From: Candidatus Uhrbacteria bacterium RIFCSPLOWO2_01_FULL_47_17
GTDB lineage: Bacteria; Patescibacteriota; Patescibacteriia; UBA9934; GWF2-40-263
Direction of reading: 5' to 3'
Assembly: GCA_001791305.1 (NCBI GenBank)
Contig: MGEI01000003.1
Location: 13,926 to 77,925 of the forward strand
Length of the DNA stretch: 64,000 nt
In this document: piece by piece, positions 1-62,633 of the stretch
Numbering within the stretch: position 1 is the first letter of the stretch
Layout: the number at the start of each line of letters is the position of its first letter
Notes under the pieces: model-generated
The model's input: only the letters and a program-made list of their open reading frames with translations
Databases searched by the model: none
Told to the model about the DNA's origin: nothing
Made by a program: the position numbers and the translations under genes

Positions 1-965
1 TTCGCATGATGGCGGCTGTGCAGCCGTTCATCTCCGGTGCTATCTCGAAAACAGTAAACATGCCACACGAGGCGAGTGTTGAAGATATCGCAGAAGTGTA
101 CATGACCGGTTGGAAGCTCGGACTCAAGGCGATCGCGATTTATCGTGATGGTTCGAAGAGACAACAAGCGTTGACCACGTCGAAGGAATCAGATGCAAAG
201 AAACAAAATACAAAAGTTGCGGAAGCAAACGTTGAAACCCCACTTGTCGTGCCTGCGGTTTCTGCTTCCGTGCCTACCGTTACCGTCTCGGATGATCGTA
301 AAATGCGCCGTCGCAGAATGCCAGATGAACGTCGTGCGATTACGCACAAGTTTCAGATCGGCAATCATCAAGGATTTATTACCGTTGGATTGTATGATGA
401 CGGCACGCCGGGCGAAGTGTTCATCACGATGTCAAAAGAAGGAAGTGTCATCAGTGGACTCATGGATTCATTTGCAACGTCTATTTCGATTGGTCTCCAA
501 TACGGAGTGCCCCTCGAAGTTCTCGTAAACAAATTCGTTCACATGCGATTTGAACCTTCCGGATTTACCTCAAACCCACAAATCCGCATTGCAAAATCCA
601 TCACCGATTACATGTTCCGTTGGCTCGCGCTCAAGTTTCTTCCTCGGGAGTCACAGATCGCGCTTGGCATTCAAGTTGGTGAAGAAAGCATGACGGAAGC
701 GACAAACGTTGGGGAGAAGGCGGATGTTATAGGCGGGGTGCCCTCACCCCGCGTTGAAACGGTTTTGGAAGCGCAGCCGGAATTATTTTCCGTCAAAGCA
801 AAAGACGCCACATACCCACTCGGACAATGGGCACACAAAACACTTACATCGACATTCGACAATCAATCAGACGCCCCCGCCTGTGATTCCTGTGGATCCA
901 TGATGGTGCGCAACGCTGCGTGTTATAAGTGTTTGAACTGCGGAGCAACATCGGGTTGTAGTTGA
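1..965 (+). CDS. nrdJ: Class II (adenosylcobalamin-dependent) ribonucleotide reductase, C-terminal portion; 5' end lies outside the window
   Basis: ORF open to the left edge; conserved block KTVNMP...[20 protein letters not shown] typical of B12-dependent RNR; C-terminal CDSC...CYKCLNCG zinc ribbon. Confidence 0.8.
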
Positions 966-1007
966 TGTCTGTCAGTGCAAGGAGTTCGACGACGAAGCAA
1001 TCTTTTC

Positions 1008-1040
1008 GAACGAGAAACAGAGACCGTCATGGTCTCTGTT
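1008..1040 (+). terminator. Rho-independent terminator after nrdJ (hairpin CAGAGACCgtcatGGTCTCTG plus T-run)
   Basis: Perfect 8-bp stem and T-run read directly; near-identical copy at 2118-2150. Confidence 0.5.
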
Positions 1041-1090
1041 TTTGTTTGACGCGACACATTGTGGGTGTTATATTTTTTATGGAATCAAAC

Positions 1091-31011: not shown

Positions 31012-31590
31012 ATGGATCCGATCCCTGCAGCAAAAAAAGAACAACCGAAAGAAGTTGTTCAGCCACAATCGGAAGGTGTTGTTGAACAACCATCCGCACC
31101 GGAAGTTTCTCCGGTTGTTGAGGTTGAGGGAAAAGGCGTAGAGGTGGCAGAGGTCACAGAGGCGACAGAGGCAGCAAAGACGGCAGAGGAAGTAAAAGAA
31201 CAAGAGCAGATGGTTGAGCAGCCGCAAGTTGTTGAACAAACACCTCCGTCACCACCGCCCACACCAGTCGTTGTCGCAAAACCTGTCAAAGATCGTTTCA
31301 CACAAGAGTTGGAAGAAGTCCTGGAAGAGGATTTGAAAGAACTGTACATGGCCATGCCGAAAGAAAAACAGGCGGAGTTTCGTCAGAAAGGCGAAGAAAC
31401 CCTTTCGGCCGTTCGTGAGCTTGTGCGCGCCGCACATGTCAATGTCAAAAAAATTTTTCAATTGATCCGCGACTGGCTTAAAATGATCCCAGGCGTGAAT
31501 CGTTATTTTCTTGAACAAGAGGCAAAAATAAAAACAGACAAAATTATTTTGGTCTCGGAAGAAGAAAAGAAACGTGGATCACAACTTTAA
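31012..31590 (+). CDS. Acidic Glu/Pro/Val-rich hypothetical protein
   Basis: Low-complexity acidic N-terminal half, helical C-terminal half; directly upstream of and overlapping the ATPase gene. Confidence 0.3.
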   Translation: MDPIPAAKKEQPKEVVQPQSEGVVEQPSAPEVSPVVEVEGKGVEVAEVTEATEAAKTAEEVKEQEQMVEQPQVVEQTPPSPPPTPVVVAKPVKDRFTQELEEVLEEDLKELYMAMPKEKQAEFRQKGEETLSAVRELVRAAHVNVKKIFQLIRDWLKMIPGVNRYFLEQEAKIKTDKIILVSEEEKKRGSQL

Positions 31591-34159
31591 TGTGATGCTT
31601 TTCGCCCTTGGCTTTGAAACCGAACAAGCAACCCCGCCTGTCGTGAGTGCCACGGCCGGATTTGATTTAACCTACGCATACATTATTTTTGCGTTCCTTG
31701 GTGTTGGGCTTGTGGTCGTGGCCGCCCTTTACGCGTACCGGTATTTTTTGCGCACCTTTACAAGAGTTCGCAGTAAAACATTTGAGAAAATCATTTTACA
31801 AGTGACGCTTCCAAAGTTTCGTCACGAAGAAGAAAGTCAACGCGGACCACAAAAAGAACAGGTGCATGAGGCGATTGCCGCTGCAGAAACGTTTTTTGCC
31901 GCGATTGGTGGACTCAAAGCCGAAAAAGGATTTCACGCATGGTTGCACGGCAGAAGCGACGAATTTTCGTTTGAGATTGTTGTGCAAAAAAAACTCATCA
32001 AGTTTTTTCTTGTGGCTCCGGCACGTCTGAAAGAATTTGCCGAGCAACAAATCAGTTCGGCATTTCCGTTTGCCCACGTTGAGGAGGTCGAAGATTATAA
32101 CATCTTTCATCCGCAAGGCACCATTCTTGGAAGTTATCTTGCGTTTAAACGCGAAAGCGCATTTCCGATCAAGACATACAAAAAGTTGGATAAAGACCCA
32201 TTGAACGCCCTCACAAACGTATTTTCAAAACTCCCAGAAGATGACGGAGCGGCGTTTCAGTTTATTGTGCGTTCTGCGCGAGCCACATGGCGCCAGCGCG
32301 GAATCCAAATCGCAAGCCGCATGCAACAAGGAATGAAAATGAGCGAAGCGATTGCGGGAAAGAAAGGGGGCTCGCAAGGATTGGTCGGTGAATTTGCAAC
32401 CTTGTCAGGAATCGCAAGTAAGCCAGAAGAATCCAAAGAGAAAAAAGAACACCGATTAGGTCCGCAAGAAGAAGAGGTGGTGAAAGGTCTCGAAGAGAAG
32501 GCAAGCAAAGCGGGAATGGATGTGTGTATTCGTTTGATTGCGTCATCCACAAACGCTCCCGCTGCACAAATGCTCATGCAAAACATGTTGAATGCGTTTT
32601 CGCAGTACAACATTTATGAGTACGGAAATTCGTTCGTGAAAGTTGTGCCGCCATCCGAAAAGAAGGTGGTGCAGAAATTTATTTATCGAACATTTGACCA
32701 TCGCAACAAACTCGTCATGAACTCGGAAGAGATGGCGAGCCTTTGGCATTTGCCGCTTGCGTGGACCGAAACTCCAAATATTCAGTGGCTCATTGCGCGT
32801 AGAGGTCCTGTTCCGTCCGGTGTTCCATCGGGTCCAGAAACGGGTGACATCCAACTTGGATACAATACGTATCGTGGAATCAAGACAGAAGTTTGGATGA
32901 AGTCACCAGATCGCTCCCGTCACATGTACATTATTGGAAAATCCGGTTCGGGTAAGTCTGAAACGATTGCACGTTTTGCGCTTGAAGATATTAACGCAGG
33001 ACACGGTGTTGCGGTTGTAGAGCCGCACGGCGACCTGATTGAACGCATCTTACAAAACATCCCACGCGAACGTATTGATGATGTGATTGTATTCAATCCA
33101 TCTGATTTAGAGCGCCCAATGTGTCTGAACATGCTTGAAGTCAAAGATGAAAGCATGAAAGACATGGCCGTTCAAGAAATGATCGCCATTTTCTATAAAT
33201 TATTTCCCCCAGAAATGATCGGTCCGATGTTTGAACATCATATGCGCAACGCCATGTTGACCTTGATGTCCGATCCAGAAAATCCCGGCTCGATCATTGA
33301 AATTCCCCGCATGTTTTCGGATGTGGATTTCCAGAATAAATGGCGTGCAAAAATTACAGATCCCGTCGTCATGTCTTACTGGGTGAATGAGGTTGATAAA
33401 ACGTCAGATTTTCACAAATCAGAAATGCTTGGATATTTGATTTCGAAAGTTGGACGATTTGTGGAAAATGAAATGATGCGCAACATCATTGGGCAACAAC
33501 GGAACAGTTTTGATTTTCGTGAGGTGATGGATAAAAAGAAAATCTTGCTTGTGAATTTATCCAAAGGAAAGACCGGAGACGTAAACTCAGAGTTGCTTGG
33601 ACTCATCATCGTATCGAAGTTGCAGATGGCCGCTCTTGGGCGTGCAGATATGGCAGAAGAAGATCGAAATGATTTTTATTTGTATATCGACGAGTTTCAA
33701 AATTTCATTACAGATTCGATCGCGACGATTTTGTCTGAGGCACGTAAATATCGATTGAACTTGATTATTGCTCACCAGTACGTCGGGCAGCTTGTCAAAA
33801 ACAATGATACAAAGATTAAAGACGCGGTGTTTGGAAACGTCGGAACCATGTTTGTTGCGCGTATCGGTCCAGAAGACGTGGAGGTGTTTGAAAAAATTTA
33901 TGCGCCAGATTTTTCGGGATACGATTTAATGAACTCGGACAAATTTACGTGGTACGTAAAAATGATTGTGAACAATGCGCAAGAAAAGCCGTTCACGATG
34001 AATATCTTTCAAGCGCCAAAGGGAGATAAAAAACTCGCAGAGGCGATTAAAGAATTATCCCGTCTGAAATACGGACGCAACAGACAAATCGTTCAAGAAG
34101 AAATTTTGGAAAGAACATCTTTGTTGCAGGGCGCGCCTCTTACAACAACAGATGCATAA
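31574..34159 (+). CDS. Membrane-anchored P-loop ATPase of the TraG/TraD/VirD4 (AAA_10) coupling-protein type
   Basis: N-terminal TM helix; Walker A IIGKSGSGKSE; Walker B YLYIDEFQNF; C-terminal AHQ motif; real start may be the ATG near 31595. Confidence 0.55.
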   Translation: MDHNFNVMLFALGFETEQATPPVVSATAGFDLTYAYIIFAFLGVGLVVVAALYAYRYFLRTFTRVRSKTFEKIILQVTLPKFRHEEESQRGPQKEQVHEAIAAAETFFAAIGGLKAEKGFHAWLHGRSDEFSFEIVVQKKLIKFFLVAPARLKEFAEQQISSAFPFAHVEEVEDYNIFHPQGTILGSYLAFKRESAFPIKTYKKLDKDPLNALTNVFSKLPEDDGAAFQFIVRSARATWRQRGIQIASRMQQGMKMSEAIAGKKGGSQGLVGEFATLSGIASKPEESKEKKEHRLGPQEEEVVKGLEEKASKAGMDVCIRLIASSTNAPAAQMLMQNMLNAFSQYNIYEYGNSFVKVVPPSEKKVVQKFIYRTFDHRNKLVMNSEEMASLWHLPLAWTETPNIQWLIARRGPVPSGVPSGPETGDIQLGYNTYRGIKTEVWMKSPDRSRHMYIIGKSGSGKSETIARFALEDINAGHGVAVVEPHGDLIERILQNIPRERIDDVIVFNPSDLERPMCLNMLEVKDESMKDMAVQEMIAIFYKLFPPEMIGPMFEHHMRNAMLTLMSDPENPGSIIEIPRMFSDVDFQNKWRAKITDPVVMSYWVNEVDKTSDFHKSEMLGYLISKVGRFVENEMMRNIIGQQRNSFDFREVMDKKKILLVNLSKGKTGDVNSELLGLIIVSKLQMAALGRADMAEEDRNDFYLYIDEFQNFITDSIATILSEARKYRLNLIIAHQYVGQLVKNNDTKIKDAVFGNVGTMFVARIGPEDVEVFEKIYAPDFSGYDLMNSDKFTWYVKMIVNNAQEKPFTMNIFQAPKGDKKLAEAIKELSRLKYGRNRQIVQEEILERTSLLQGAPLTTTDA

Positions 34160-34818: not shown

Positions 34819-36462
34819 ATGTTGGCGTTGTATCGAACGTATCGTCCCGCTGTTTTTGCTGATGTCACGGGCCAAGAACACGTGACACAGACCATTCAGA
34901 ACCAGATTTTATCTGGTTCTGTTTCGCATGCGTATGTTTTTACGGGGCCGAGAGGGATCGGAAAAACAACCGTTGCGCGCCTTCTCGCAAAAGTGGTGAA
35001 TTGTGTTTCTCGAAACGGCACAGAACCGTGTAACACGTGTGAGGCATGTCTCTCCATCATAAGCGGAAAAGCTATGGATGTGTTTGAGATTGATGCTGCT
35101 TCGAACACCGATGTCGACAATGTGCGTGAGAATATCATTCGCAACGTGCGGTTCGCGCCGTCTGTGCTTACAAAAAAAGTGTACGTGATTGATGAGGTGC
35201 ACATGCTCTCAACGAGCGCATTCAATGCACTCCTAAAGACGCTCGAAGAACCGCCGGCACACGCTCTGTTCATTCTCGCCACAACAGAGATTCATAAAGT
35301 GCCGGCGACTATTTTGAGTCGCTGTCAGCGTTTTGATTTTAAAAAGATCTCGAGGGAAGCCATGGTGACACGTCTTGCCTCGATCGTGAAACAAGAAAAA
35401 CGAAAAGTGGATGAGGATGTTCTTGTTGGAATCGCAAAACATTCCGGTGGATCTGAGCGTGATGCGGAAAGCATGCTCGGTCAAATTTTGTCGCTCGACG
35501 AAGGAAAAATTACCATGGACATTGCCTCGCTCGTGCTTCCAATAACCACGGACGTGATTGTGAACGAATTCATCGACGCGCTCTCAGCGCGTGATGCCGC
35601 ATCCGCCATCAGACAACTCAATGCACACATTGAACAGGGGGTCGATCTTACGCATTTTCTTGATGATGTCATTTCAACCATGCGCGATCAACTACTCGCA
35701 TCCGTCGCAGATCGAAGCGCATCAGACCGCATGTCATTCTTGAATCACGCCATTGAACTTTTTCTCGCCGCACGCCGTCACATGAGAACAGATGAGATTC
35801 CACAGTTACCGGCGGAGCTCGCGATTGTAGAGTTGTGTATGGATGTGGATCGTAGGGGCGCGGTCTTGTGCCCGCCCTCGAATGTAAATTTTAAACAACA
35901 AGGGGTTGATTCGGGTCGAGTCATCGAGACCTCTGTTATGGGTGGGGTCACCAGACCTCACCACAATGCAATCGTTATCGAGAAGCCCATCGCCGAAAAA
36001 CCCATCGAAGAACCCCACGTCACCCTCGAACCCATCACCGAAACAGCCACCACCGTTCCTGTCATGGAAATGGTCGATCAGTTCGTCCTTGAGCCGGTTA
36101 CGATCGAACCATTCACAACAAGTGAACAAGTGTTTGACAGCGTCCCCGTCATCAGTGTTGATGAAGTCCGTCGCAAATGGCCGGAGGTGTTTGCGCAAGT
36201 CCAAGAGTGCAACGCATCGCTCCCACTCTTTTTGCAAGCGTGTGAAGTGAACAGTGTTGGAAATGATCTTGTTGAACTCGCGTTTGAATATGATTTGTAT
36301 GTGCAAACCGTGAACAAAGAAAAAAATCGCAAACTCGTCGAGAGCATTCTCGAACGTGTCCTCGGCAAAGCGGTAAAGATCCGCGCCGTGCTAGGTAAAG
36401 CAAAAGAGAAAGATGAAGTCGTCGCATCACTCGTGGATGCGTTTGGTGGGAGCACGGCATAA
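34819..36462 (+). CDS. dnaX: DNA polymerase III subunit gamma/tau
   Basis: LYRTYRPAVFADVTGQEHV, Walker A GPRGIGKTT, zinc Cys cluster CVSRNGTEPCNTCEAC, SRC motif. Confidence 0.9.
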   Translation: MLALYRTYRPAVFADVTGQEHVTQTIQNQILSGSVSHAYVFTGPRGIGKTTVARLLAKVVNCVSRNGTEPCNTCEACLSIISGKAMDVFEIDAASNTDVDNVRENIIRNVRFAPSVLTKKVYVIDEVHMLSTSAFNALLKTLEEPPAHALFILATTEIHKVPATILSRCQRFDFKKISREAMVTRLASIVKQEKRKVDEDVLVGIAKHSGGSERDAESMLGQILSLDEGKITMDIASLVLPITTDVIVNEFIDALSARDAASAIRQLNAHIEQGVDLTHFLDDVISTMRDQLLASVADRSASDRMSFLNHAIELFLAARRHMRTDEIPQLPAELAIVELCMDVDRRGAVLCPPSNVNFKQQGVDSGRVIETSVMGGVTRPHHNAIVIEKPIAEKPIEEPHVTLEPITETATTVPVMEMVDQFVLEPVTIEPFTTSEQVFDSVPVISVDEVRRKWPEVFAQVQECNASLPLFLQACEVNSVGNDLVELAFEYDLYVQTVNKEKNRKLVESILERVLGKAVKIRAVLGKAKEKDEVVASLVDAFGGSTA

Positions 36463-36497
36463 AGAAAAACACTCACCAAAAGGTGAGTGTTTTTCTT
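36461..36497. terminator. Bidirectional terminator hairpin (ACACTCACCaaaaGGTGAGTGT flanked by A/T runs) between dnaX and tRNA-Gln
   Basis: 9-bp perfect stem with flanking A and T runs. Confidence 0.5.
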
Positions 36498-36571
36498 TGG
36501 TTCCCGAGCAGGGATTCGAACCCCGATAAACAGATCCAGAATCTGTTGTCCTGCCGTTAGACGACTCGGGA
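36498..36571 (-). tRNA. tRNA-Gln (anticodon CUG), CCA encoded
   Basis: Manual fold of the reverse complement: acceptor TCCCGAG/CTCGGGA, D arm GTCT-AACGGCA-GGAC, anticodon stem ACAGA/TCTGT with loop TTCTGGA, T arm CGGGG-TTCGAAT-CCCTG, 74 nt. Confidence 0.75.
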
Positions 36572-36693
36572 AGGAATGAACGCGGAAAATATATCAATGA
36601 TTGTCGAAGGAGTCAATCGTGAATCGTTTCTTGACCTTTCGATTTTTTTCCCTTATGATCTCCTCTCGTTCCTTTCATGAGCGAGGAGGTTTC

Positions 36694-37389
36694 ATGAATC
36701 CATTGTTGATTCCGTATCCAGAGACGGTCGTTTTCATTCGTCATGCAGAATCCGAAGGGAACGTTCGTACACGAGAGGAACAACGTTGTTTTCCCGTTGG
36801 AACGAACGCGTACAAACTTTCGCCTCGTGGGCGAGAGCAGGCACGGATCACGGGAGAACGTGTTCGGGAGTTGTTTCCGAAACCGGATCGTGTGATCCGT
36901 TCGTATTATGCACGGACGAATGAGACGGCTCGCATCATCTATCCAGATCTTGAGATACGTGAGGATCCGCTTCTTGCAGAGCGTGATCGTGGTATTTGGA
37001 CGAATGCGACAGAGAAAGAGGTGTCGGTCTGTATGCCATGGGAAATTCGACGGCGTGATGAACAAGGCGTTTATCATTATCGCGCTTCCGGTGGCGAAAA
37101 CATTCCAGATGTTGAACGCCGGGTTCGTGAATTTCGTCGCAGTATTCGTTTTAACTATTCTGGCAAAACGATCGTCGTTGTCGGCCATTCGCAATGGATT
37201 CTGCTTTGGCAGAAGATTGTGCACGATTGGCCTATGGAAGAAACGATGCGCCGATTCATAGCCGGTGAATGGGTGGAAAATGCCTCAATCCTTATCTATC
37301 ACAACACCTGGAGCGAAGAATTCGGCAAGCACATTTTGACTCACGACCCCGAAACGGACTACGAAGTGCCATGGAAAGACAAACTCTGA
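36694..37389 (+). CDS. Histidine phosphatase superfamily protein (phosphoglycerate mutase-like; CobC-like role possible)
   Basis: FIRHAESEGN (RHG-type catalytic motif), later GHSQWI (His); ATG at 36694 with GAGGAGG SD. Confidence 0.65.
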   Translation: MNPLLIPYPETVVFIRHAESEGNVRTREEQRCFPVGTNAYKLSPRGREQARITGERVRELFPKPDRVIRSYYARTNETARIIYPDLEIREDPLLAERDRGIWTNATEKEVSVCMPWEIRRRDEQGVYHYRASGGENIPDVERRVREFRRSIRFNYSGKTIVVVGHSQWILLWQKIVHDWPMEETMRRFIAGEWVENASILIYHNTWSEEFGKHILTHDPETDYEVPWKDKL

Positions 37390-37471
37390 GCCATTCTCGG
37401 CTCTTTTTTATTTGGGTTGATCGATCCGCCCGTCTCCGATATACTTTTACCAAGCCTTTCTACTTCCCCCT

Positions 37472-37981
37472 ATGCCAAAACCAACCGGACTATTCATCGG
37501 CCGCTTTCAGCCACTTCACAATGGACACATGCTTGTGATTGAAGGGATGACCAAAGTTTGTGGCAAGATTTGGATTGGGATTGGGAGTTCGGAGAAGCAT
37601 CATGAGAAGGAAAATCCATTTACCGCTGCGGAGCGCCGAGAGATGTTGCAACGTGCGCTTCAGGATAAAAACTTGATCCCGATGTTTGATATCAACTTTG
37701 TGGAGCTTCCAGATGAAACGGATGATGTTGTGTGGCGCGACAAGGTTCTCGAGAAGACAGGAGTTGTTGATGTTGTGTGGACGGGAAATGATCAAACGGC
37801 TAAATGTTTCGAGGGTAAAGTTCCCGTAAAGCCCATTAAAGAAGTTCCTGGAATCTCGGCACATGAAATTCGTAAGATGATGGTAGAGGAAGATATGAAC
37901 TGGAAAAAGAAAGTTCCGAACGACGTTATGATGTTTATCGGAGAAATTGACGGTGTTGCACGAGTGAAAGCGTTGGAGTAA
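37472..37981 (+). CDS. nadM: Nicotinamide-nucleotide adenylyltransferase, archaeal/NadM type
   Basis: GLFIGRFQPLHNGH (H/TxGH), 169 aa, C-terminal SAHEIR-type motif. Confidence 0.8.
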   Translation: MPKPTGLFIGRFQPLHNGHMLVIEGMTKVCGKIWIGIGSSEKHHEKENPFTAAERREMLQRALQDKNLIPMFDINFVELPDETDDVVWRDKVLEKTGVVDVVWTGNDQTAKCFEGKVPVKPIKEVPGISAHEIRKMMVEEDMNWKKKVPNDVMMFIGEIDGVARVKALE

Positions 37982-38064
37982 TCCACGCTTTTTTGTTTGA
38001 CGTATTTTCCCCTTGTGATACCTTGCCACGTGGCGCGTTCGAGAGATTCGCGCATGAGGTTTAC

Positions 38065-39348
38065 ATGCCAGCAACGGTCGTTCTTGGTGCTCAGTGGGGC
38101 GATGAGGGGAAAGGGAAGATCATCGATGCACTTGCGGAAGACGCAGACGTCGTGGTTCGATTCCAAGGCGGAGCGAACGCGGGGCACACGATCGTGATTG
38201 GCGACAAGACCTACCCGATTCACTTGCTCCCGAGCGGAATTTTTCGCAAGGGCAAACTGAACTTGGTCGGGCCCGGCGTCGTGTTTGATCTTGCGGTTGG
38301 ATTGCAAGAACTCGAACTCGCAAACGAGTTCGGTTCGCGCGTCATGCTCGACGAGCAGACCCCTATTGTTCTTCCGATGCATCGACTGATTGATGCGGCA
38401 CGTGAAGTAGCGGCGGGGTCGTCGGCGATTGGGACAACCAAGCGCGGCATCGGTCCGGCGTACAGCGACTTCTGGCTGCGGCGATCTGTCACGTTCGACG
38501 ACCTGCGTTCACGCGAGAAGCTTGAAGCGGCGCTTAGTCAACAATACTGGAACGAGATGTTCGCCGTCGTTTCCATGCTCGGCGGCGCCAGCATTGATTT
38601 TCGTTCGCTCGGTATGCCATTCAATCCGCTTCATCGAGAAGACACGATTGACTGGTGTCTGAGCGCGGGCGAAGTCCTTGCGCTGCACATTAGTGACACG
38701 CGCGCGTGCGTTCACAATGCGCTCACACGAAACCAAAATGTGTTGTTCGAAGGCGCACAAGGCGTCATGCTCGATGCCTATCACGGCTCACGTCCGTACG
38801 TGACATCATCGCTTTGTACCGCCGCGGGCGTTTCGGCGTCGTTCGGTGTCTACACGTTCGACCGTGTGATCGGTGTCGCGAAAGCGTACACCACGCGCGT
38901 GGGCGCCGGGCCGTTTCCAACGGAACGTCTCGATACACAAGGGGAAGAACTGCGTCGTCGTGGTCATGAATTCGGAACGACAACAGGACGTCCACGTCGA
39001 TGCGGATGGCTGGATCTTCCGGCGCTTCGCTACGCGTGTCGTGTGGGCGGAATCACGGAACTTGTGATCACGAAGCTTGATATTCTGACTGATCACCCCC
39101 GTATTTTTGTCTGTGATGATTACGCAAACTTTGATGAGCACGCAACGCTCACACATTCCGTTTTGCAATCGGCTAAGACACGCTACCGACGCATGTGTGG
39201 TTGGAAAGAAGACTTGTCGATGCATGAGCATTTCAACGATTTGCCTCTCTCGGCACATATGTACATTGACTACATCGAAGTGGCCACCTACACAGCCGTT
39301 TCCGGCGTCGGTGTCGGCGCAGAACGCAATCAGATTCTCTGGCGTTAA
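38065..39348 (+). CDS. purA: Adenylosuccinate synthetase
   Basis: VVLGAQWGDEGKGKIID...RFQGGANAGHT, GIGPAYSD, TTGRPRRCGW are PurA signatures; ATG at 38065. Confidence 0.9.
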   Translation: MPATVVLGAQWGDEGKGKIIDALAEDADVVVRFQGGANAGHTIVIGDKTYPIHLLPSGIFRKGKLNLVGPGVVFDLAVGLQELELANEFGSRVMLDEQTPIVLPMHRLIDAAREVAAGSSAIGTTKRGIGPAYSDFWLRRSVTFDDLRSREKLEAALSQQYWNEMFAVVSMLGGASIDFRSLGMPFNPLHREDTIDWCLSAGEVLALHISDTRACVHNALTRNQNVLFEGAQGVMLDAYHGSRPYVTSSLCTAAGVSASFGVYTFDRVIGVAKAYTTRVGAGPFPTERLDTQGEELRRRGHEFGTTTGRPRRCGWLDLPALRYACRVGGITELVITKLDILTDHPRIFVCDDYANFDEHATLTHSVLQSAKTRYRRMCGWKEDLSMHEHFNDLPLSAHMYIDYIEVATYTAVSGVGVGAERNQILWR

Positions 39349-39410
39349 CCTAATCGATCAGAAATGGTCGATTTTTTTATTGTTCAAATCGTGTGCTATC
39401 ATAACCGCCT

Positions 39411-40391
39411 ATGGAAAAGAAATTCGTCTCCAATAAAGCGTTTCTCGTAAATCCGCAAGGGAAAATCTTGTTTGTTCGGCATACGGGCAAAAATCCGGAT
39501 GCGTGCTATGAACCACCGGGCGGGCGCATGGATGCAAATGAATCTTTGCTCGAGGGGCTTCAACGAGAATTGCGTGAGGAGCTTGGAATTGAAATCGAAC
39601 CATCAAAAGCGCGACCGTTCCACACGGACCATTGGCGATTTGAGGATGGTGATCAGGACGCAGTCGTTGGAATTTTTTACATTGTTCCGATCGGAGACGT
39701 TTCTGTTCAACTTTCGCATGAGCACACAGAACATGTCTGGATTGATCCGCGACAAGAAACAACGGTTCCTATGTTCGAGTCTCTCCGCCGCGCTCTCGAC
39801 GTGTATCGCGCGCATGAGGGAATTGTGATCGCAAACGATCGTGATCTCATCGGCCATCAAGGTTTCGGCCTCATTCAAGTGATCACCGGAAACGGAAAAG
39901 GGAAGACCACGTCCGCGACCGGACTTATGGTTCGCGCGGTTGGTGCCTCGAAAAAAGTTGGTGTTGTGTATTTCGACAAAGGCGGTGAGTCGCATTATTT
40001 TGAACGTGATGTTCTGCGCAACCTCGGTGTCGATCTTGTAGCAACCGGTCGAGACAGAATCGATCCCATCACAGGTCGATTTGATTTTTCGATTCAACAC
40101 GTCGATCGAGAGGAAGCCGCTCGCGGACTTCTCGAAGTTGAGCGCATGTTCGAAGCAGGCTACGACCTCATCATCATGGACGAGATCAACTCGACAACGG
40201 ATCTTGGAATGCTCGCCGCTGAGGATGTTCTCGCATTACTCGAGAAGAAGCCCGAGAAGACAGAGCTCGTGTTTACAGGACGAAACGCCCCGCAGGCATT
40301 CCGCGATCGCGCGCATCTCGTGAGCGAGGTTGGACTGAAGAAACATTATTTCTATTCTGGCGTGAAAGCGCGCGAGGGATTGGATTTTTAA
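39411..40391 (+). CDS. Fusion of an N-terminal Nudix hydrolase and a C-terminal ATP:cob(I)alamin adenosyltransferase (CobA/CobO/BtuR family)
   Basis: Nudix box GGRMDANESLLEGLQRELREELGIE; C-terminal GLIQVITGNGKGKTTSATGLMVRAVGASKKVGVVYFDKGG...DLIIMDE matches the CobA/BtuR P-loop family. Confidence 0.65.
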   Translation: MEKKFVSNKAFLVNPQGKILFVRHTGKNPDACYEPPGGRMDANESLLEGLQRELREELGIEIEPSKARPFHTDHWRFEDGDQDAVVGIFYIVPIGDVSVQLSHEHTEHVWIDPRQETTVPMFESLRRALDVYRAHEGIVIANDRDLIGHQGFGLIQVITGNGKGKTTSATGLMVRAVGASKKVGVVYFDKGGESHYFERDVLRNLGVDLVATGRDRIDPITGRFDFSIQHVDREEAARGLLEVERMFEAGYDLIIMDEINSTTDLGMLAAEDVLALLEKKPEKTELVFTGRNAPQAFRDRAHLVSEVGLKKHYFYSGVKAREGLDF

Positions 40392-40416
40392 AAACACCCA
40401 CACGGGTGTTTTTTTA

Positions 40417-41148
40417 TTATTGTTTATACCTCTTCACAAACCGTTTCAAAATTTCCATCGGTACGGTGATGTTCTCGCGTCTCACTTCATCCTTCACTTG
40501 TTCCGCTTGATCAAGAGGGAAGTAGCCAAGATGTTTGTAGATTTCAATACGCACGCACATTCCTTCGACATCGAGTTCTGGGTGAAATTGTGAGGCATAC
40601 ACATTTTGTCCCATACGGAACAGATGTGGTGGACAGTCTTTCGACGATGCGAGTAATGTTCCGCCTTCCGGAACTCGCGCCGCCGCCTCTTTGTGTCCAA
40701 CAAATCCGCGGAATTTTCGAGGAAGCCCTGCGAGCAGTGGATCGTATGTACCTTCTTCCGTCACGAACAGATCGACGGCGCCTGGTTTTTCATGAAAGTC
40801 ATGTGTGATTTCGACATCAAGTGCCTTTGTGAGAATCTCAAGTCCGTAGCAAATCGCAAAACACGGAAAATCTTTTTCAACCACTTCACGCATGAGCGGC
40901 ATGAACTTTTCTTCGGCCTGCTTTTGCACTTCCGTTTTTTTCTCATCCGGATCCCCTGGATTCCAAGGTCCTCCACCGATCATCACTGCCGAGTAGTCCT
41001 CGAAGTTCACCTCCGGCACACCGACTTGCTCAACACGCACGCGATGCACATCATCCGCCGAGAGTTCTCCGAATTTCAAAATCGCTTCATACTCACCATC
41101 TGATGCCGCGTCTTCTGGTCGAATCTGGAGAAGGAGAATGGGTTTCAT
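40417..41148 (-). CDS. Class I glutamine amidotransferase-like protein
   Basis: CFAICYGLE (nucleophile elbow Cys) and QFHPE (His-Glu) in GATase1 spacing. Confidence 0.55.
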   Translation of the reverse strand: MKPILLLQIRPEDAASDGEYEAILKFGELSADDVHRVRVEQVGVPEVNFEDYSAVMIGGGPWNPGDPDEKKTEVQKQAEEKFMPLMREVVEKDFPCFAICYGLEILTKALDVEITHDFHEKPGAVDLFVTEEGTYDPLLAGLPRKFRGFVGHKEAAARVPEGGTLLASSKDCPPHLFRMGQNVYASQFHPELDVEGMCVRIEIYKHLGYFPLDQAEQVKDEVRRENITVPMEILKRFVKRYKQ

Positions 41149-41152
41149 AGTC

Positions 41153-41188
41153 GGGTACGTAGGGGTGCCCTTTATGGGTACCCATGCC
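41153..41188. repeat. Palindromic element family B, short intergenic copy
   Basis: gggtacgtaggggtgccctttatgggtacccatgcc shares both termini with the uvrA copy at 8620-8678. Confidence 0.45.
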
Positions 41189-41195
41189 TATTCAT

Positions 41196-41942
41196 TTATT
41201 CAAACTGTAAATACATCGCGGCATGGTCGGAAACCTCGTCGGGGAGTACTTGAAACTTGTTCACGAGAATTTCAGGCGATACAAGCGTGTAGTCCGCAAA
41301 TTTTTCCGGCTTTGTGTAGAACGAGGTACGTGTTGAGGTGATGTTGTTCTCGCGGATCAGATTACGCAAGCCGAGCATCTCGAATTTTTTTAAACTTTCC
41401 GTTTCAGGAGTGAGATTAAAATCGCCGCATAACACAACGGGATTGTCGATTGACTTAATCAACTCAATAATGCGATCCGATTGTGCGAGTCGATCTGGAG
41501 TATCCGTTTTGCCCTGTCCGTTCCAAAGTCCATGAAAATTCATGATCGTCCGATTTCCCTGTGGAGTCTCAATCGTAACATATTGCACGTTGCGTGCATG
41601 CGTCCCAATATCTCCTTCCGGAAGATATCCTTTAAAGTGATGCACAAAGACTTCGCCTTCCTCGATAACAGACAAATCTTTTTTGATGAGCATCATGAGG
41701 CCATAATCATTCAAGACATGGGGACGGAAATACACAGCATGATTCGGAAGGAGAGCGGAAATTTCTTGCATGCCGCTTGTCATGACATGTGTTTGATCGA
41801 TCTTGTCCTTTAAGGATTCATACGGTGCTGACCAAATCTCTTGTAAACAAAACACATCCACATCTTTGTATGTTTCAAAAAACGCAAGCAGATTTTCTTT
41901 CCCGGCGCGTCCGCCCCAGGTGTTGAGAGAGATAAGTTTCAT
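41196..41942 (-). CDS. Endonuclease/exonuclease/phosphatase (EEP) family protein
   Basis: MKLISLNTWGG...DVFCLQE...GDFNLTPE...SDHAAMYL: EEP catalytic motifs. Confidence 0.6.
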   Translation of the reverse strand: MKLISLNTWGGRAGKENLLAFFETYKDVDVFCLQEIWSAPYESLKDKIDQTHVMTSGMQEISALLPNHAVYFRPHVLNDYGLMMLIKKDLSVIEEGEVFVHHFKGYLPEGDIGTHARNVQYVTIETPQGNRTIMNFHGLWNGQGKTDTPDRLAQSDRIIELIKSIDNPVVLCGDFNLTPETESLKKFEMLGLRNLIRENNITSTRTSFYTKPEKFADYTLVSPEILVNKFQVLPDEVSDHAAMYLQFE

Positions 41943-61044: not shown

Positions 61045-61119
61045 GGCCTCATCGTCTAACGGTTAGGACAGCAGGTTCTCATCCTGTAAATCGGAGTTCG
61101 ATTCTCCGTGGGGTCACCA
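61045..61119 (+). tRNA. tRNA-Glu (anticodon CUC), CCA encoded
   Basis: Manual fold: acceptor GGCCTCA/TGGGGTC (2 G-U pairs), D arm GTCT-AACGGTTA-GGAC, anticodon stem GCAGG/CCTGT with loop TTCTCAT, T arm CGGAG-TTCGATT-CTCCG, 75 nt. Confidence 0.7.
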
Positions 61120-62623
61120 CAAGGGACTCGCCATCATGGCGGGTCTTTTGTTTTTGTAAAATGAGCGAAATTCTTGTAGTTCCAAAACCTTTTCCCTTAA
61201 AATACGGAATTCCTTCAGGAAAAATCAATTTTTGGAACTTAATTCTTCGTTCTCCTTGTAAGTCATTCCATTGTTGATCAAGATGCTCAACAAATTTGGT
61301 TGCATAAGTAATTGCGAATTCAACATCTAGTTGGTCAGTCTTGTAATCATTCATGGATACGCGGATTGTTGCCATTTCGTTTTCAATCTCAGATTTTCGT
61401 TCTTGATATACCTCTTTCGTATAAGATCCATCCTCAAACATCTCACAAATTCTTTTGCGCTTGGTTTCCAACACACCAAGTTGTTTTACGTATTTTGTTG
61501 CATCTGATTCAAAACTACCGCGTTCTTCTGCCCATCTATCAATTACGCTTTCTCGTAAAAGATCTAAGTGCTGTTTAGTCGGTTCTAATTCTTGCAGAAC
61601 TTTCATAAAGTCTCTTTCCACCGTTTCTTTTGAGAGTGATTTGTTTTGCATGGCACAATCTGGAGTGTAGCAATGATAATATCCGTACTGACCGCCAACT
61701 CCTCTCGATCGACTACCAGTGACAGTGTTGTTACATGCTCCGCATCGAAGAATCTTCTTTAATGGAAAAAGAGGATTAAAGCTTGATCGCGGTTGTTTCT
61801 TAATGCGTTTGCCTTTTCGGATTGCGATGATCTGATACATTTCATCTTCTGTGATCATCGCTGTGTGAAGACCTTTTATCTCTTCATCTTTCACCCATGG
61901 ATTCTGAATAATCCCGGCATAGTATTTCAAATACTGACCAAGCATCTTGTCGACCATTTGCTTTGTCGTTTTTCTATTACGTATTTTCTCTAAGCCTTCC
62001 TGTTTCAAGTAAGCACAAATTTCAGATAACTCGATCTCACCACGAGAGAATCTTTTTAATGCTCTCTGGAGAATAGGAAAAACAACCGGATCAATCCCAT
62101 CAGCTGTATTTTTCTTCTCTCCGTGCATCTTGGAACGATTACTCAAATAACCGAGCGGAGGCTTCCACGGCGTAATTCCTTGCCTTACACGCGCGATCAT
62201 TCCGTCAACGCTTCTTTGAGAGCGAACTGCGTTATCAAACTCTGCTGTTCCGGCCAGAATTGTTTCAAGAAACTTTTGCGAAGGATTGTTTCCAATAAGT
62301 TCCGTGACTGAATGAAGGGTCGTACCGTAATCTTGTAAGAGCTTGCGAATGCTGAAATGATCTTCCGTATTTCTTGCAAAGCGATCAACTTTTACAACAA
62401 CAAATGCATCTATCTTTCCTTTATTCTGATGACAGAATGCAAGTGCACGAAGAAACTCAGTTCGCTCAGACGATTTTGCAGACTCTCCCTCTTCTCGGAA
62501 GACCTTAAGAACTTCTAAACCTTTTTCCAGACAATACTGTCGACATTTTCTTTCTTGATCTTCAAGAGATGTACCATTAACCTGTTCATTTGAACTAACG
62601 CGTGTGTAAATAATTGCTTTCAT
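61079..62623 (-). CDS. Large serine recombinase (integrase) of an integrative element
   Basis: MKAIIYTRVSSNEQ resolvase-type catalytic Ser; recombinase domain; C-terminal Cys zinc ribbon/coiled coil; 3' end overlaps tRNA-Glu by about 40 nt. Confidence 0.85.
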   Translation of the reverse strand: MKAIIYTRVSSNEQVNGTSLEDQERKCRQYCLEKGLEVLKVFREEGESAKSSERTEFLRALAFCHQNKGKIDAFVVVKVDRFARNTEDHFSIRKLLQDYGTTLHSVTELIGNNPSQKFLETILAGTAEFDNAVRSQRSVDGMIARVRQGITPWKPPLGYLSNRSKMHGEKKNTADGIDPVVFPILQRALKRFSRGEIELSEICAYLKQEGLEKIRNRKTTKQMVDKMLGQYLKYYAGIIQNPWVKDEEIKGLHTAMITEDEMYQIIAIRKGKRIKKQPRSSFNPLFPLKKILRCGACNNTVTGSRSRGVGGQYGYYHCYTPDCAMQNKSLSKETVERDFMKVLQELEPTKQHLDLLRESVIDRWAEERGSFESDATKYVKQLGVLETKRKRICEMFEDGSYTKEVYQERKSEIENEMATIRVSMNDYKTDQLDVEFAITYATKFVEHLDQQWNDLQGERRIKFQKLIFPEGIPYFKGKGFGTTRISLILQKQKTRHDGESLVVTPRRIELRFTG

Positions 62624-62633
62624 ACGTTGATTC

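What the first reader, a model, noticed from the sequence alone, without database searches (positions are those of the whole stretch)
36694..40391. Cofactor-salvage cluster: His-phosphatase, NadM NMNAT, purA and a Nudix-CobA adenosyltransferase fusion, in a window that also encodes B12-dependent nrdJ
Gene 39411-40391 fuses a canonical Nudix box to a CobA/BtuR-type ATP:corrinoid adenosyltransferase (GNGKGKTTSATG P-loop). CobA makes adenosylcobalamin, the cofactor of the class II RNR at the left end of the window, and its co-product is triphosphate. A fused Nudix pyrophosphohydrolase is an unusual partner and might remove a nucleotide by-product or act on NAD/ADP-ribose. The nearby histidine phosphatase could be CobC-like (alpha-ribazole phosphate phosphatase). 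NadM sits beside purA. Together this suggests reliance on scavenged corrinoids and pyridine nucleotides.
Basis: partly seen in the sequence, partly recalled or inferred. Interest (0 to 1): 0.6.

Follow-up and report, generated by a model that had tools for sequence, protein, structure and literature searches.

The report
Nudix–CobA fusion serving B12-dependent RNR
A groundwater Uhrbacteria (CPR) genome encodes a real fusion of a MutT-like Nudix hydrolase to the enzyme that makes coenzyme B12, and relatives of this gene usually sit right after the B12-dependent ribonucleotide reductase gene, so it most likely activates scavenged B12 for DNA-precursor synthesis.

Summary
39411-40391(+) is one uninterrupted ORF of 326 aa. 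It has a canonical, conserved Nudix box (aa 38-60) and a complete CobA/BtuR-type ATP:corrinoid adenosyltransferase domain (aa 153-326; Pfam E 6e-46; fold TM 0.78-0.88 to Salmonella CobA).

The organism is a Candidatus Uhrbacteria bacterium (Patescibacteria/CPR). The fusion recurs in more than 100 protein clusters of that lineage.

The main new result is comparative. This CobA belongs to a CPR-specific clade whose genes lie just downstream of nrdJ: 21 of 26 metagenomic loci with at least 3 kb of upstream flank, against 0 of 72 non-CPR CobA loci. It therefore looks like an NrdJ-linked adenosyltransferase.

The Nudix half groups with (d)NTP pyrophosphohydrolases (MutT, NudG, RppH), not ADP-ribose/NAD hydrolases. 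Its role is unresolved.

The four-gene "cofactor cluster" is only partly conserved and is probably not one operon. HisPhos-NadM-CobA does recur in some Uhrbacteria; purA does so rarely. A CobC identity for the phosphatase is not supported. No corrinoid transporter, riboswitch or other cob gene is in the window.

Verdict: a new variant of a known kind, of moderate interest.

The parts
39411..40391 (+). Nudix-CobA fusion gene (326 aa plus stop)
   Evidence: Single ORF; two Pfam domains; identical protein indexed in 33 blocks of the assembly collection, 24 contigs read; AF2 model with mean pLDDT 88.8 and pTM 0.70
39438..39758 (+). Nudix domain (aa 10-116), MutT-like minimal fold
   Evidence: PF00293, 54.7 bits; Foldseek TM 0.87-0.89 (normalised to target) to MutT 3HHJ and 3R03; profile search best hits 3GRN, NudG, BdRppH
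39522..39590 (+). Nudix box G38x5E44x7R52E53LxE56E57xG59I60
   Evidence: Read from the translation. In 22 fusions G38, R52, E53, E56 and E57 are invariant; in 83 fusions G38, R52 and E57 stay invariant and E44, E53, E56 and G59 are at least 90% conserved. G38, E44, R52, E53, E56 and E57 are invariant in the 16-sequence Nudix-domain alignment that includes the standalone paralogues
39759..39866 (+). Conserved linker: C-terminal Nudix helix (aa 123-136, with the 'YR' motif) plus the 'GIV..D..I.G..GFGLIQ' lead-in to the CobA sheet
   Evidence: G137, G148, G151 and L154 at least 90% conserved and G153 invariant in 83 fusions; Y132, R133 and I138 at least 90% conserved in the 22-fusion set; helix 123-136 in the model. 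Standalone Nudix paralogues end after this helix, and standalone CPR CobAs begin at 'GxxGxGL'
39867..40388 (+). CobA/BtuR-type ATP:co(I)rrinoid adenosyltransferase domain (aa 153-326)
   Evidence: PF02572, 157 bits; aligns to Salmonella CobA residues 26-196, E 1.5e-19; Foldseek TM 0.78-0.88 (normalised to target) to 1G64, 1G5R and 4HUT; positions invariant across the family are conserved
39888..39911 (+). P-loop GNGKGKTT (aa 160-167)
   Evidence: Identical to Salmonella CobA residues 36-43. G160, G162, K163, G164, K165 and T167 are invariant in the fusions; N161 and T166 are at least 90% conserved
40038..40091 (+). Clade-specific loop 'GRDRIDPITGRFDFS' (aa 213-227) holding F224 and F226, candidate equivalents of Salmonella F91/W93
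   Evidence: HMMER aligns F224/F226 to F91/W93. MAFFT places them differently because of a 9-aa insertion. F224-D225-F226 are invariant in the fusions
40390..40413 (+). Terminator-like hairpin between the fusion and the convergent GATase gene
   Evidence: 10-bp stem followed by a T-run; consensus match only
3..965 (+). 3' part of nrdJ (class II, B12-dependent RNR), the presumed client of the AdoCbl made by the fusion
   Evidence: NF005122, 375 bits over model positions 652-960; Ribonuc_red_lgC C-terminus plus TSCPD. Orthologous nrdJ lies directly upstream of CobA in relatives
36694..37389 (+). Histidine phosphatase (His_Phos_1), specificity unknown
   Evidence: PF00300, 91.5 bits; far below the CobC cut-offs; nearest PDB relatives PspA and PhoE; syntenic with NadM-CobA in L134
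37472..37981 (+). NadM-type nicotinamide-nucleotide adenylyltransferase
   Evidence: NF002243, 129 bits against cut-off 127; an orthologue lies next to or near CobA in L087, L134, L153 and L179
38065..39348 (+). purA adenylosuccinate synthase
   Evidence: PF00709, 459 bits; NF002223, 446.6 bits against cut-off 402; followed by a terminator-like hairpin at 39352-39373
40417..41148 (-). Class I glutamine amidotransferase (PRK07567 type), convergent with the fusion; a conserved neighbour
   Evidence: NF005743, 287 bits against cut-off 264. The same convergent arrangement occurs in L098, L104, L113, L116 and L127
36501..36571 (-). tRNA gene separating dnaX from the HisPhos-NadM-purA block
   Evidence: Rfam RF00005, 59 bits. 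In L092 the fusion follows dnaX directly, without the tRNA or these three genes

Best explanation
The gene encodes a bifunctional protein that arose by fusing two neighbouring genes of an nrdJ-linked module. The C-terminal domain is an active CobA-type ATP:co(I)rrinoid adenosyltransferase. It takes scavenged cobalamin, reduced to Co(I) by an unidentified flavoprotein, and transfers the 5'-deoxyadenosyl group of ATP to it, giving adenosylcobalamin and inorganic triphosphate. The adenosylcobalamin is the radical cofactor of the class II ribonucleotide reductase NrdJ, encoded 38 kb upstream in this window and immediately upstream in most relatives. The N-terminal domain is a catalytically competent MutT/NudG-like Nudix pyrophosphohydrolase. 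It most likely acts on (deoxy)nucleoside triphosphates in the same dNTP-supply context, either sanitising the pool or converting dNTP to dNMP. The fusion would then secure co-expression with the cofactor-activating enzyme rather than channel a substrate. Shown: domain identities, intact motifs, fold, conservation of the fusion, and the nrdJ linkage. Inferred: corrinoid substrate, NrdJ as client, and the Nudix substrate class.
For: CobA half: PF02572, E 5.9e-46. It aligns to Salmonella CobA 26-196 with an identical P-loop. Fold TM is 0.78-0.88 to 1G64, 1G5R and 4HUT. Positions invariant or nearly so in the 72 non-CPR CobAs compared (G36, G38, G40, K41, T42, R51, K66, E73, D127, E128, T159, G160, R161, H182) are invariant in the 19 CPR-clade sequences.

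NrdJ link: the CobA gene lies just downstream of nrdJ in L007, L009, L011, L012, L013, L094 and L096-L099, and within 3 kb in L008 and L014. In an independent metagenome sample taken with a clade motif, 21 of 26 loci with at least 3 kb of upstream flank have nrdJ upstream on the same strand within 3 kb. Two more have it upstream at 4-7 kb and one has an nrdJ hit adjoining CobA on the downstream side. None of 72 non-CPR CobA loci had an nrdJ hit within 10 kb.

Nudix half: the box is intact and conserved. A profile of the domain hits the MutT-related protein 3GRN (2e-16), NudG CTPase (2e-13), BdRppH (5e-13), then MutT and NudI. The fold matches MutT at TM 0.89.

Autonomy of the Nudix unit: standalone paralogues exist at 44-48% identity. 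One sits 4 nt upstream of a fusion, directly after nrdJ (L098, L099). Another lies elsewhere, beside RmuC (L095). Most CPR CobAs that follow nrdJ lack any Nudix domain.

Nucleotide-metabolism neighbours: a Nuc_deoxyrib_tr gene lies between nrdJ and CobA in L165 and L168. A Ham1-like ITPase lies beside the fusion in L091. purA, a GATase and an MFS protein with weak nucleoside-symporter similarity are in the window.
Against: No biochemistry exists for any member of this clade. The CobA half scores below both NCBIfam CobA equivalog cut-offs (118.7 < 167.75; 138.5 < 185), and the clade has its own signature plus a 9-aa insertion next to the loop that holds the corrinoid-facing aromatic residues in Salmonella CobA. 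In this genome nrdJ is 38 kb away, and several fusions are not near nrdJ (L087, L089, L091-L093). The Nudix half is below every characterised Nudix equivalog cut-off, so its substrate is a class-level guess. A covalent fusion kept in more than 100 clusters could also mean direct catalytic coupling, which this explanation does not require. No corrinoid transporter, reductase or cobalamin riboswitch was seen in the window or in the 14 related loci scanned.
Confidence: 0.55

Rival explanations
1. The Nudix domain is catalytically coupled to CobA. It hydrolyses the inorganic triphosphate co-product, or another reaction by-product, relieving product inhibition and pulling adenosylcobalamin synthesis forward when corrinoid is scarce.
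For: Triphosphate is the CobA co-product and inhibits the enzyme; a cell-free B12 system had to add pyrophosphatase to remove it (PMC10449867, citing Fonseca 2002). The fusion and its linker are conserved in more than 100 clusters. The two-domain model has pTM 0.70, which hints at a defined arrangement.
Against: The nearest Nudix relatives act on nucleoside triphosphates or RNA 5' ends, not on inorganic polyphosphate. Most CPR CobAs that follow nrdJ work without a Nudix domain. Standalone and tandem Nudix paralogues exist, which fits an autonomous enzyme better. Model coordinates could not be inspected to see whether the two active sites face each other.
Confidence: 0.2
2. One reading: a cofactor-salvage cluster in which the His-phosphatase is CobC-like, and the Nudix domain works on NAD or ADP-ribose together with NadM, as in bifunctional NadM-Nudix enzymes.
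For: HisPhos-NadM-CobA are contiguous in L134, NadM-CobA in L153, and NadM is within 1.3 kb in L087 and L179. TIGR03162 (alpha-ribazole phosphatase) is the best-scoring NCBIfam model for the phosphatase. NadM-Nudix fusions are an established architecture (PDB 2QJO and 2QJT appear among the hits).
Against: The phosphatase is far below the CobC cut-offs (64.5 against 162.9; 20 against 250), and its nearest solved relatives are PspA and PhoE. No CobS, CobT or CobU partner for a CobC is in the window. The Nudix profile matches NadM-Nudix and ADPRases 5 to 11 orders of magnitude more weakly than MutT-type enzymes, and mostly over the box only. The NadM context lacks Nudix in L134 and L153, and the Nudix context (after nrdJ) lacks NadM. 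Terminator-like hairpins separate the genes.
Confidence: 0.1
3. The CobA-like domain of this CPR clade is not a corrinoid adenosyltransferase. It is a diverged P-loop NTPase with another role for NrdJ, for example a chaperone or regulator.
For: It scores below the NCBIfam CobA equivalog cut-offs. The clade has its own motifs (FDKGG, HY.ER, HYFY) and a loop insertion. NCBIfam holds a CobA-like 'P-loop NTPase family protein' model, NF005648, that also matches weakly.
Against: All positions invariant across the CobA family are retained and the fold matches closely. The tight linkage to an AdoCbl-dependent enzyme is what a dedicated adenosyltransferase would show, as is known for PduO- and EutT-type enzymes (my own knowledge). 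The match to NF005648 (49 bits) is far weaker than to the CobA models (119-139 bits).
Confidence: 0.07

Closest known systems
Salmonella enterica CobA (BtuR), the housekeeping ATP:co(I)rrinoid adenosyltransferase (PDB 1G5R, 1G64, 4HUT)
   Same: Same Pfam family, same fold (TM 0.78-0.88), an identical GNGKGKTT P-loop, and conserved D127-E128, T159-G160-R161 and H182 equivalents. The expected chemistry is the same: ATP + cob(I)alamin gives AdoCbl + triphosphate.
   Different: About 30-34% identity. It lacks the Salmonella N-terminal ~25-residue helix and has a Nudix domain plus linker in its place. It has a 9-aa insertion before the aromatic loop and clade-specific motifs. It scores below the NCBIfam equivalog cut-offs. 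Its genes sit beside nrdJ rather than in a cob/btu context.
Client-dedicated adenosyltransferases PduO and EutT, and human ATR/MMAB
   Same: Functional analogy: an adenosyltransferase encoded next to the AdoCbl-dependent enzyme it serves. ATR also hands the cofactor to its client enzyme (PMC8633584).
   Different: These belong to unrelated protein families. No dedicated adenosyltransferase has been described for class II RNR, as far as my literature searches show. Direct cofactor hand-over to NrdJ is not tested here.
MutT/NudG-type Nudix (d)NTP pyrophosphohydrolases (E. coli MutT, NudG/Orf135, NudI; M. mazei MutT-related 3GRN; BdRppH)
   Same: Canonical Nudix box, a minimal single-domain fold of about 130 aa, and the best profile and fold matches.
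   Different: Only about 20-25% identity over the structural alignments. Below all equivalog cut-offs. Substrate unknown. Fused to CobA, which none of these are.
Bifunctional NadM-Nudix (NMNAT / ADP-ribose pyrophosphatase; PDB 2QJO, 2QJT)
   Same: A Nudix domain fused to an ATP-using cofactor-synthesis enzyme. A NadM gene lies two genes upstream in this window.
   Different: The fusion partner here is CobA, not NadM. The Nudix domain matches the NadM-Nudix one only weakly and mainly over the box (E 5e-8 against 2e-16 for the best hit).

Membership tests
CobA/BtuR/CobO ATP:co(I)rrinoid adenosyltransferase (PF02572) | Match to the Pfam family model above its gathering score, over the full domain | tested here: met
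   157.2 bits against 25.7; profile positions 3-172 of 172
CobA/BtuR/CobO ATP:co(I)rrinoid adenosyltransferase (PF02572) | NCBIfam equivalog/subfamily cut-offs (TIGR00708 cobA; NF004637) | tested here: not met
   118.7 < 167.75 and 138.5 < 185. The domain is a diverged clade member, so orthology to the characterised CobA is not established by these models
CobA/BtuR/CobO ATP:co(I)rrinoid adenosyltransferase (PF02572) | P-loop GNGKGKT(T/S), plus the positions that are invariant or nearly so across the family (Salmonella R51, K66, E73, D127, E128, T159, G160, R161, H182) | tested here: met
   All retained in the window protein, and the listed non-P-loop positions are invariant in 19 CPR-clade sequences
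CobA/BtuR/CobO ATP:co(I)rrinoid adenosyltransferase (PF02572) | Aromatic pair equivalent to Salmonella Phe91/Trp93, which generates four-coordinate cob(II)alamin (Moore et al. 2012, title cited in PMC5282855) | tested here: inconclusive
   HMMER aligns F224/F226 to F91/W93. MAFFT aligns I217/F224 because of a 9-aa insertion. Position 93 is itself poorly conserved among the 72 other CobAs
CobA/BtuR/CobO ATP:co(I)rrinoid adenosyltransferase (PF02572) | CobA fold | tested here: met
   Foldseek TM (normalised to target) 0.78-0.88 and rmsd 2.2-2.7 Å to 1G5R and 1G64_A; model pLDDT 88.8
CobA/BtuR/CobO ATP:co(I)rrinoid adenosyltransferase (PF02572) | Adenosylation of cob(I)alamin with ATP, releasing triphosphate | not testable with these tools
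   Needs an enzyme assay or complementation of a cobA mutant
Nudix hydrolase superfamily (PF00293) | Nudix box GX5EX7REUXEEXGU, with the catalytic glutamates | tested here: met
   G38...E44...R52 E53 L R E56 E57 L G59 I60; invariant or at least 90% conserved in 83 fusions and in the paralogues; PF00293, 54.7 bits against 21.1
Nudix hydrolase superfamily (PF00293) | Alpha/beta/alpha Nudix fold | tested here: met
   TM (normalised to target) 0.87-0.89 to MutT 3HHJ and 3R03
MutT / NudG orthologous groups | NCBIfam equivalog cut-offs (NF008044/TIGR00586 MutT; NF007834 NudG) | tested here: not met
   24.8 < 148, 24.2 < 97.9 and 33.9 < 156. It resembles these enzymes but is not a member of either group
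ADP-ribose pyrophosphatase / NadM-Nudix | Match to the bifunctional NMNAT/Nudix models or to ADPRase structures beyond the Nudix box | tested here: not met
   NF003791 27.7 < 409, covering the box region only. 2QJO at E 5e-8 over profile positions 4-67; ADPRase 1V8I at 2e-5
CobC alpha-ribazole phosphatase (for the His-phosphatase at 36694-37389) | NCBIfam equivalog cut-offs (TIGR03162; NF011580), and presence of CobS/CobT partners | tested here: not met
   64.5 < 162.9 and 20.3 < 250. PDB neighbours are PspA and PhoE. No cobS, cobT or cobU in the window; the rest of the genome was not available
NadM-type NMN adenylyltransferase (for 37472-37981) | NCBIfam cut-offs | tested here: inconclusive
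   Subfamily model NF002243: 129 against 127, met. Equivalog TIGR01527: 110 < 181, not met
Class II (AdoCbl-dependent) ribonucleotide reductase NrdJ (for 3-965) | Match to the B12-dependent RNR equivalog models; C-terminal TSCPD domain | tested here: inconclusive
   Only the last 320 aa lie in the window. They score 375 bits over model positions 652-960 of NF005122 (full-length cut-off 859), with TSCPD present. A full-length orthologue in L094 has ATP-cone, Ribonuc_red_2_N, the lgC barrel and TSCPD

The most novel reading that the evidence does not exclude
The CPR clade represents a fourth kind of client-dedicated adenosyltransferase: a CobA-type enzyme committed to class II RNR. In Uhrbacteria its fused Nudix domain would be mechanistically coupled to it, for instance as the first Nudix inorganic triphosphatase that destroys CobA's inhibitory co-product, or as a proofreader of the nucleotide donor. 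The protein would then be a self-contained AdoCbl maturation or repair device for NrdJ in organisms that must scavenge every corrinoid molecule.
Probability: 0.15. Interest if true: 0.65.

Novelty: new variant of a known kind. Interest (0 to 1): 0.42.

Why it matters
CPR/Patescibacteria have minimal genomes and depend on other cells for most building blocks. This result implies that their DNA-precursor synthesis through NrdJ depends on an imported corrinoid, activated by a CobA-type enzyme that is genetically tied to the reductase. That is a concrete, testable B12 dependency for a very large and uncultivated part of bacterial diversity. As far as I could find, it would also be the first adenosyltransferase dedicated to a ribonucleotide reductase. 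The conserved Nudix fusion offers an experimental route to one of two questions: a new kind of coupling in AdoCbl synthesis (triphosphate removal), or how dNTP-pool hygiene is organised around RNR in reduced genomes. It also corrects a truncated gene call in the GenBank records of this genome.

Tried and rejected
1. Four-gene cluster purely incidental. I first concluded this from L007-L014, L089 and L092-L094. I revised it after the metagenome sample showed HisPhos-NadM-CobA in L134 and NadM-CobA in L153.
2. MazG-like NTP pyrophosphatase after CobA in L013. Only sub-threshold hits (PDB 7ODY, E 0.2; PRA-PH/MazG-like, E 0.03-0.05). Dropped as evidence.
3. Degraded Nudix domain in the ~500-nt nrdJ-CobA gaps of CobA-only loci. 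No tblastn hit even at E < 5 in L009-L014, and no Nudix-box pattern in gap ORFs.
4. Conserved small ORF after nrdJ (window 962-1453; L094 hyp121; L097 ORF). No mutual similarity.
5. Cobalamin riboswitch or other RNA near the cluster. None in the window, in the 14 related loci scanned, or at relaxed threshold in 36400-41300.
6. More distant Nudix-CobA fusions among the 330-390 aa two-stretch hits. These are CobA-CobA or Nudix-Nudix tandems.
7. CobA-only close relatives as evidence that the fusion is split in this genome. P0047 is the same DNA called from codon 147.
8. Genome-collection scan for taxonomic spread.
9. AFDB Foldseek was unavailable, Moore et al. 2012 is not held, and model coordinates cannot be inspected for the inter-domain geometry.

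Full report
**1. What is at the coordinates**

The window has four same-strand ORFs at 36694-37389, 37472-37981, 38065-39348 and 39411-40391.
- Pfam and NCBIfam identify them as a branch-1 histidine phosphatase, an archaeal/NadM-type NMN adenylyltransferase (NF002243, 129 bits, cut-off 127), adenylosuccinate synthase, and a two-domain protein.
- The two-domain protein has NUDIX at aa 10-116 (54.7 bits) and CobA_CobO_BtuR at aa 153-326 (157 bits, E 5.9e-46).
- The Nudix box G38-x5-E44-x7-R52-E53-L-x-E56-E57-x-G59-I60 and the P-loop GNGKGKTTSATG can be read directly from the translation.
- The left edge of the window (3-965) is the last 320 aa of a B12-dependent ribonucleotide reductase. It scores 375 bits over positions 652-960 of NF005122 and has a TSCPD domain.

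**2. The fusion is real, and the organism is a CPR bacterium**

- The identical 326-aa protein is indexed in 33 blocks of the public assembly collection. The 24 contigs read come from groundwater and aquifer metagenomes and share the same neighbours.
- More than 100 clusters at 50-90% identity carry both domains in one polypeptide. Where named, they come from Candidatus Uhrbacteria or Patescibacteria and are annotated only as "cob(I)yrinic acid a,c-diamide adenosyltransferase".
- In alignments of 22 and 83 fusions, the Nudix box residues, the P-loop, a D257-E258 pair, T289-G290-R291, H312 and parts of the linker are invariant or nearly so. Both halves therefore look to be under purifying selection.
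- GenBank proteins OGL63399.1 and others, from the apparent source genome (Uhrbacteria RIFCSPHIGHO2_02_FULL_47_44), are 180 aa. They match codons 147-326 exactly except that Ile147 is read as Met. The gene was called short there.
- At 50% clustering the fusion collapses into about two full-length representatives. Other long two-stretch hits are CobA-CobA or Nudix-Nudix tandems. The architecture is confined to a narrow clade.

**3. The CobA half**

- It aligns with Salmonella CobA residues 26-196 (E 1.5e-19) and has an identical P-loop.
- The AlphaFold model is confident (pLDDT 88.8, pTM 0.70). Its C-terminal half superposes on 1G5R, 1G64 and 4HUT with TM 0.78-0.88, normalised to the target.
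- I aligned 92 CobA domains. The positions invariant or nearly so in the 72 non-CPR CobAs are invariant in the 19 CPR-clade sequences: G36, G38, G40, K41, T42, R51, K66, E73, D127, E128, T159, G160, R161 and H182. The remaining P-loop positions vary in one to five CPR sequences.
- The clade has its own signature: FDKGG, HY.ER, HYFY, and a 9-residue insertion before an invariant GRFDF loop.
- That insertion makes the equivalence to Salmonella Phe91/Trp93 depend on the alignment. HMMER pairs F224/F226 with F91/W93; MAFFT does not. These are the residues credited with forming four-coordinate cob(II)alamin (Moore 2012, title cited in PMC5282855).
- The domain scores below the NCBIfam CobA equivalog cut-offs. 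I file it as a diverged member of the Pfam family, not as an established orthologue of the characterised enzyme.
- Most family members are about 175 aa and, like the CPR ones, lack the Salmonella N-terminal helix. The absence of that helix is therefore not unusual.

**4. The key comparative result: linkage to nrdJ**

- In species-representative genomes, the eight CPR loci recovered (L007-L014) include seven in which the CobA gene lies next to or near nrdJ. None of the 72 non-CPR CobA loci has an nrdJ hit within 10 kb.
- Further contexts agree:
  - L094: nrdJ - 121-aa ORF - fusion.
  - L096: nrdJ - 63 nt - CobA-only.
  - L097-L099: nrdJ - Nudix - Nudix-CobA - GATase(-) in L098 and L099 (L097 has two Nudix genes and no CobA hit). 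Their nrdJ is 70-73% identical to the window's.
- I then took an independent sample, scanning metagenome contigs for the clade motif FDKGGxxHYxER. This gave 80 loci.
- Of the 26 loci with at least 3 kb of upstream flank, 21 have nrdJ upstream on the same strand within 3 kb. Two more have it upstream at 4-7 kb, and one has an nrdJ hit adjoining CobA on the downstream side. Of the 63 loci with at least 600 nt of upstream flank, 45 have it.
- The linkage spans CobA identities from 43% to 70% and several CPR lineages (Uhrbacteria, Peregrinibacteria/Peribacteria, and unnamed Patescibacteria). It is therefore more than inherited gene order within one family.
- This is the pattern expected of an adenosyltransferase dedicated to one AdoCbl-dependent client, as is known for PduO and EutT (my own knowledge). 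I found no paper describing it for class II RNR or for CPR bacteria.
- In the present genome nrdJ is 38 kb upstream. The convergent GATase downstream of the fusion is retained as in L098, L104, L113, L116 and L127. This suggests the module was broken up by rearrangement.

**5. The Nudix half**

- A profile built from the Nudix domains of fusions and standalone paralogues (A3) was searched against solved structures. The best matches are:
  - M. mazei MutT-related protein 3GRN (2e-16)
  - E. coli NudG CTP pyrophosphohydrolase (2e-13)
  - BdRppH (5e-13)
  - then MutT, NUDT18, NudI and Ap4A hydrolases
- NadM-Nudix (5e-8) and ADP-ribose pyrophosphatases (about 1e-5) match much more weakly, and mainly over the box.
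- Foldseek gives the same ranking, with TM 0.89 to MutT 3HHJ.
- The domain is thus a minimal MutT-type unit, most like enzymes that cleave (d)NTPs. It reaches no characterised equivalog cut-off.
- Several facts argue that it works on its own:
  - Standalone paralogues at 44-48% identity exist.
  - One lies 4 nt upstream of a fusion, right after nrdJ (L098, L099).
  - Another sits elsewhere, beside RmuC (L095).
  - Most CPR CobAs that follow nrdJ have no Nudix domain at all.
- Other genes found between or beside nrdJ and CobA also belong to nucleotide metabolism: a nucleoside 2-deoxyribosyltransferase family gene in L165 and L168, and a Ham1-like ITPase in L091.
- I therefore favour an autonomous (d)NTP pyrophosphohydrolase, co-expressed with the RNR support function. 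This is an inference from class resemblance and context.
- The attractive alternative is hydrolysis of triphosphate, which is CobA's co-product and an inhibitor of the enzyme (PMC10449867 citing Fonseca 2002; see also PMC8633584). Sequence cannot exclude it, and I give it about 0.2.

**6. The "cofactor-salvage cluster"**

- Terminator-like hairpins follow HisPhos (37388-37403), purA (39352-39373) and the fusion (40390-40413). Promoter-like sites precede HisPhos and NadM. These are consensus matches only: 9 terminator-like sites were found against 6.1 ± 2.5 in shuffles. They do not suggest a single operon.
- Synteny is mixed:
  - L092 has cysS - VirD4-like - dnaX - fusion, with no tRNA, HisPhos, NadM or purA.
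  - L089 and L094 also lack these genes.
  - L134 has HisPhos (60% identity) - NadM (64%) - CobA-only (72%) with spacers of about 40-75 nt.
  - L153 has NadM, then CobA 41 nt later.
  - L087 and L179 have NadM within 1.3 kb.
  - L116 has purA - fusion - GATase.
- A HisPhos/NadM/CobA neighbourhood therefore does recur within Uhrbacteria, while purA is a lineage-specific insertion. I cannot tell whether this reflects function (two ATP-dependent cofactor-activation steps) or shared ancestry of gene order.
- The CobC reading of the phosphatase is not supported. TIGR03162 scores 64.5 against 162.9 and NF011580 scores 20 against 250. The nearest structures are phosphoserine phosphatase PspA and PhoE. 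No CobS, CobT or CobU partner is in the window.

**7. What is missing**

- Every ORF of 90 aa or more in the window was checked against Pfam or NCBIfam, directly or through precomputed hits. There is no corrinoid transporter, no other cob/cbi gene, no flavodoxin, and no second B12-dependent enzyme.
- Rfam finds only two tRNAs in the window. No cobalamin riboswitch was found there or in the 14 related loci scanned.

**8. Verdict**

- The Nudix partner is a conserved, probably active MutT-like enzyme of unknown substrate.
- The wider cluster interpretation is only partly right.
- This is a new variant of a known kind: a CPR-specific, nrdJ-linked CobA clade that in Uhrbacteria carries an N-terminal Nudix domain. 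Interest is moderate at 0.42. It would be higher if the Nudix domain proves to be catalytically coupled to adenosylation.

Noticed in passing
P0127 (metagenomic protein, no window coordinates): A 558-aa protein fuses a pyruvate kinase barrel (PF00224, 212 bits) to a CPR-type CobA domain that is 55% identical to the window's. This is a second, different N-terminal partner for the same CobA clade, and it is an ATP-generating enzyme.
   Followed up: partly
window 3971-5284 (+): A 437-aa protein with a C-terminal NadD-like cytidylyltransferase domain (aa 273-433). Its 270-aa N-terminal region has no Pfam, NCBIfam or PDB match. It lies 3 kb from nrdJ and is a second nucleotidyltransferase in the window.
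   Followed up: partly
window 61045-63773: A tRNA (61045-61116, +) lies at the 3' end of a large serine recombinase gene (61079-62623, -), which is followed by a Fic/DOC gene (62634-63773, -). GC drops to 0.40-0.43 here. This is probably an element integrated at a tRNA.
   Followed up: no
window 39849-40391 versus GenBank OGL63399.1, OGL70782.1, OGL76515.1 and OGL82418.1: The public protein records for this genome start at codon 147 of the fusion (ATT read as Met). The Nudix half is therefore missing from the annotated product.
   Followed up: yes
L165 and L168 (also L109), between nrdJ and CobA: A ~127-aa nucleoside 2-deoxyribosyltransferase family gene (PF05014, 31-32 bits against cut-off 28.8) occupies the position that Nudix occupies in Uhrbacteria.
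   Followed up: partly
L119, L122, L158, L166, L169 and L176, between nrdJ and CobA, opposite strand: A conserved ~235-265-aa ORF with no Pfam match recurs between nrdJ and CobA-only genes of the 62-70% identity subclade.
   Followed up: partly
L097:1048-1194, L098:872-1018 and L099:973-1119 (- strand): The ~500-nt spacer between nrdJ and the Nudix gene gives a weak tRNA/tmRNA-like hit (15 bits against gathering score 47). A short piece of it is repeated downstream of the fusion. It may be a tRNA-like remnant or a repeat element.
   Followed up: no
window 31574-34159 (+): A VirD4/TraG-like coupling protein (DUF8128 plus T4SS-DNA_transf) lies between cysS and dnaX. The same position is conserved in L092, so it appears to be part of the core backbone rather than a plasmid remnant.
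   Followed up: no
window 20831-29518 (+): A 2,895-aa protein with CarboxypepD_reg and Big_5 repeats, probably a giant surface protein.
   Followed up: no
window 13556-14074 (-) and 11640-13553 (+): A cupredoxin/plastocyanin-like protein and a CHASE2-adenylate cyclase lie inside the uvrB-uvrA-uvrC region. A copper redox protein is unexpected in a reduced CPR genome.
   Followed up: no
L013:7737-8063 (+), directly after CobA: A 108-aa ORF starting MRYHKLVRDKIPEII gives only sub-threshold PRA-PH/MazG-like matches (E 0.03-0.05; PDB MazZ, E 0.2). It may be an all-alpha NTP pyrophosphatase analogous to the Nudix partner, but this is not significant.
   Followed up: partly
L009:4114-5145 and L095:4110-5153: RmuC follows CobA-only in L009 and follows a standalone Nudix paralogue in L095. 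This hints at an older nrdJ-Nudix-CobA-RmuC order from which one half was lost in each lineage.
   Followed up: no
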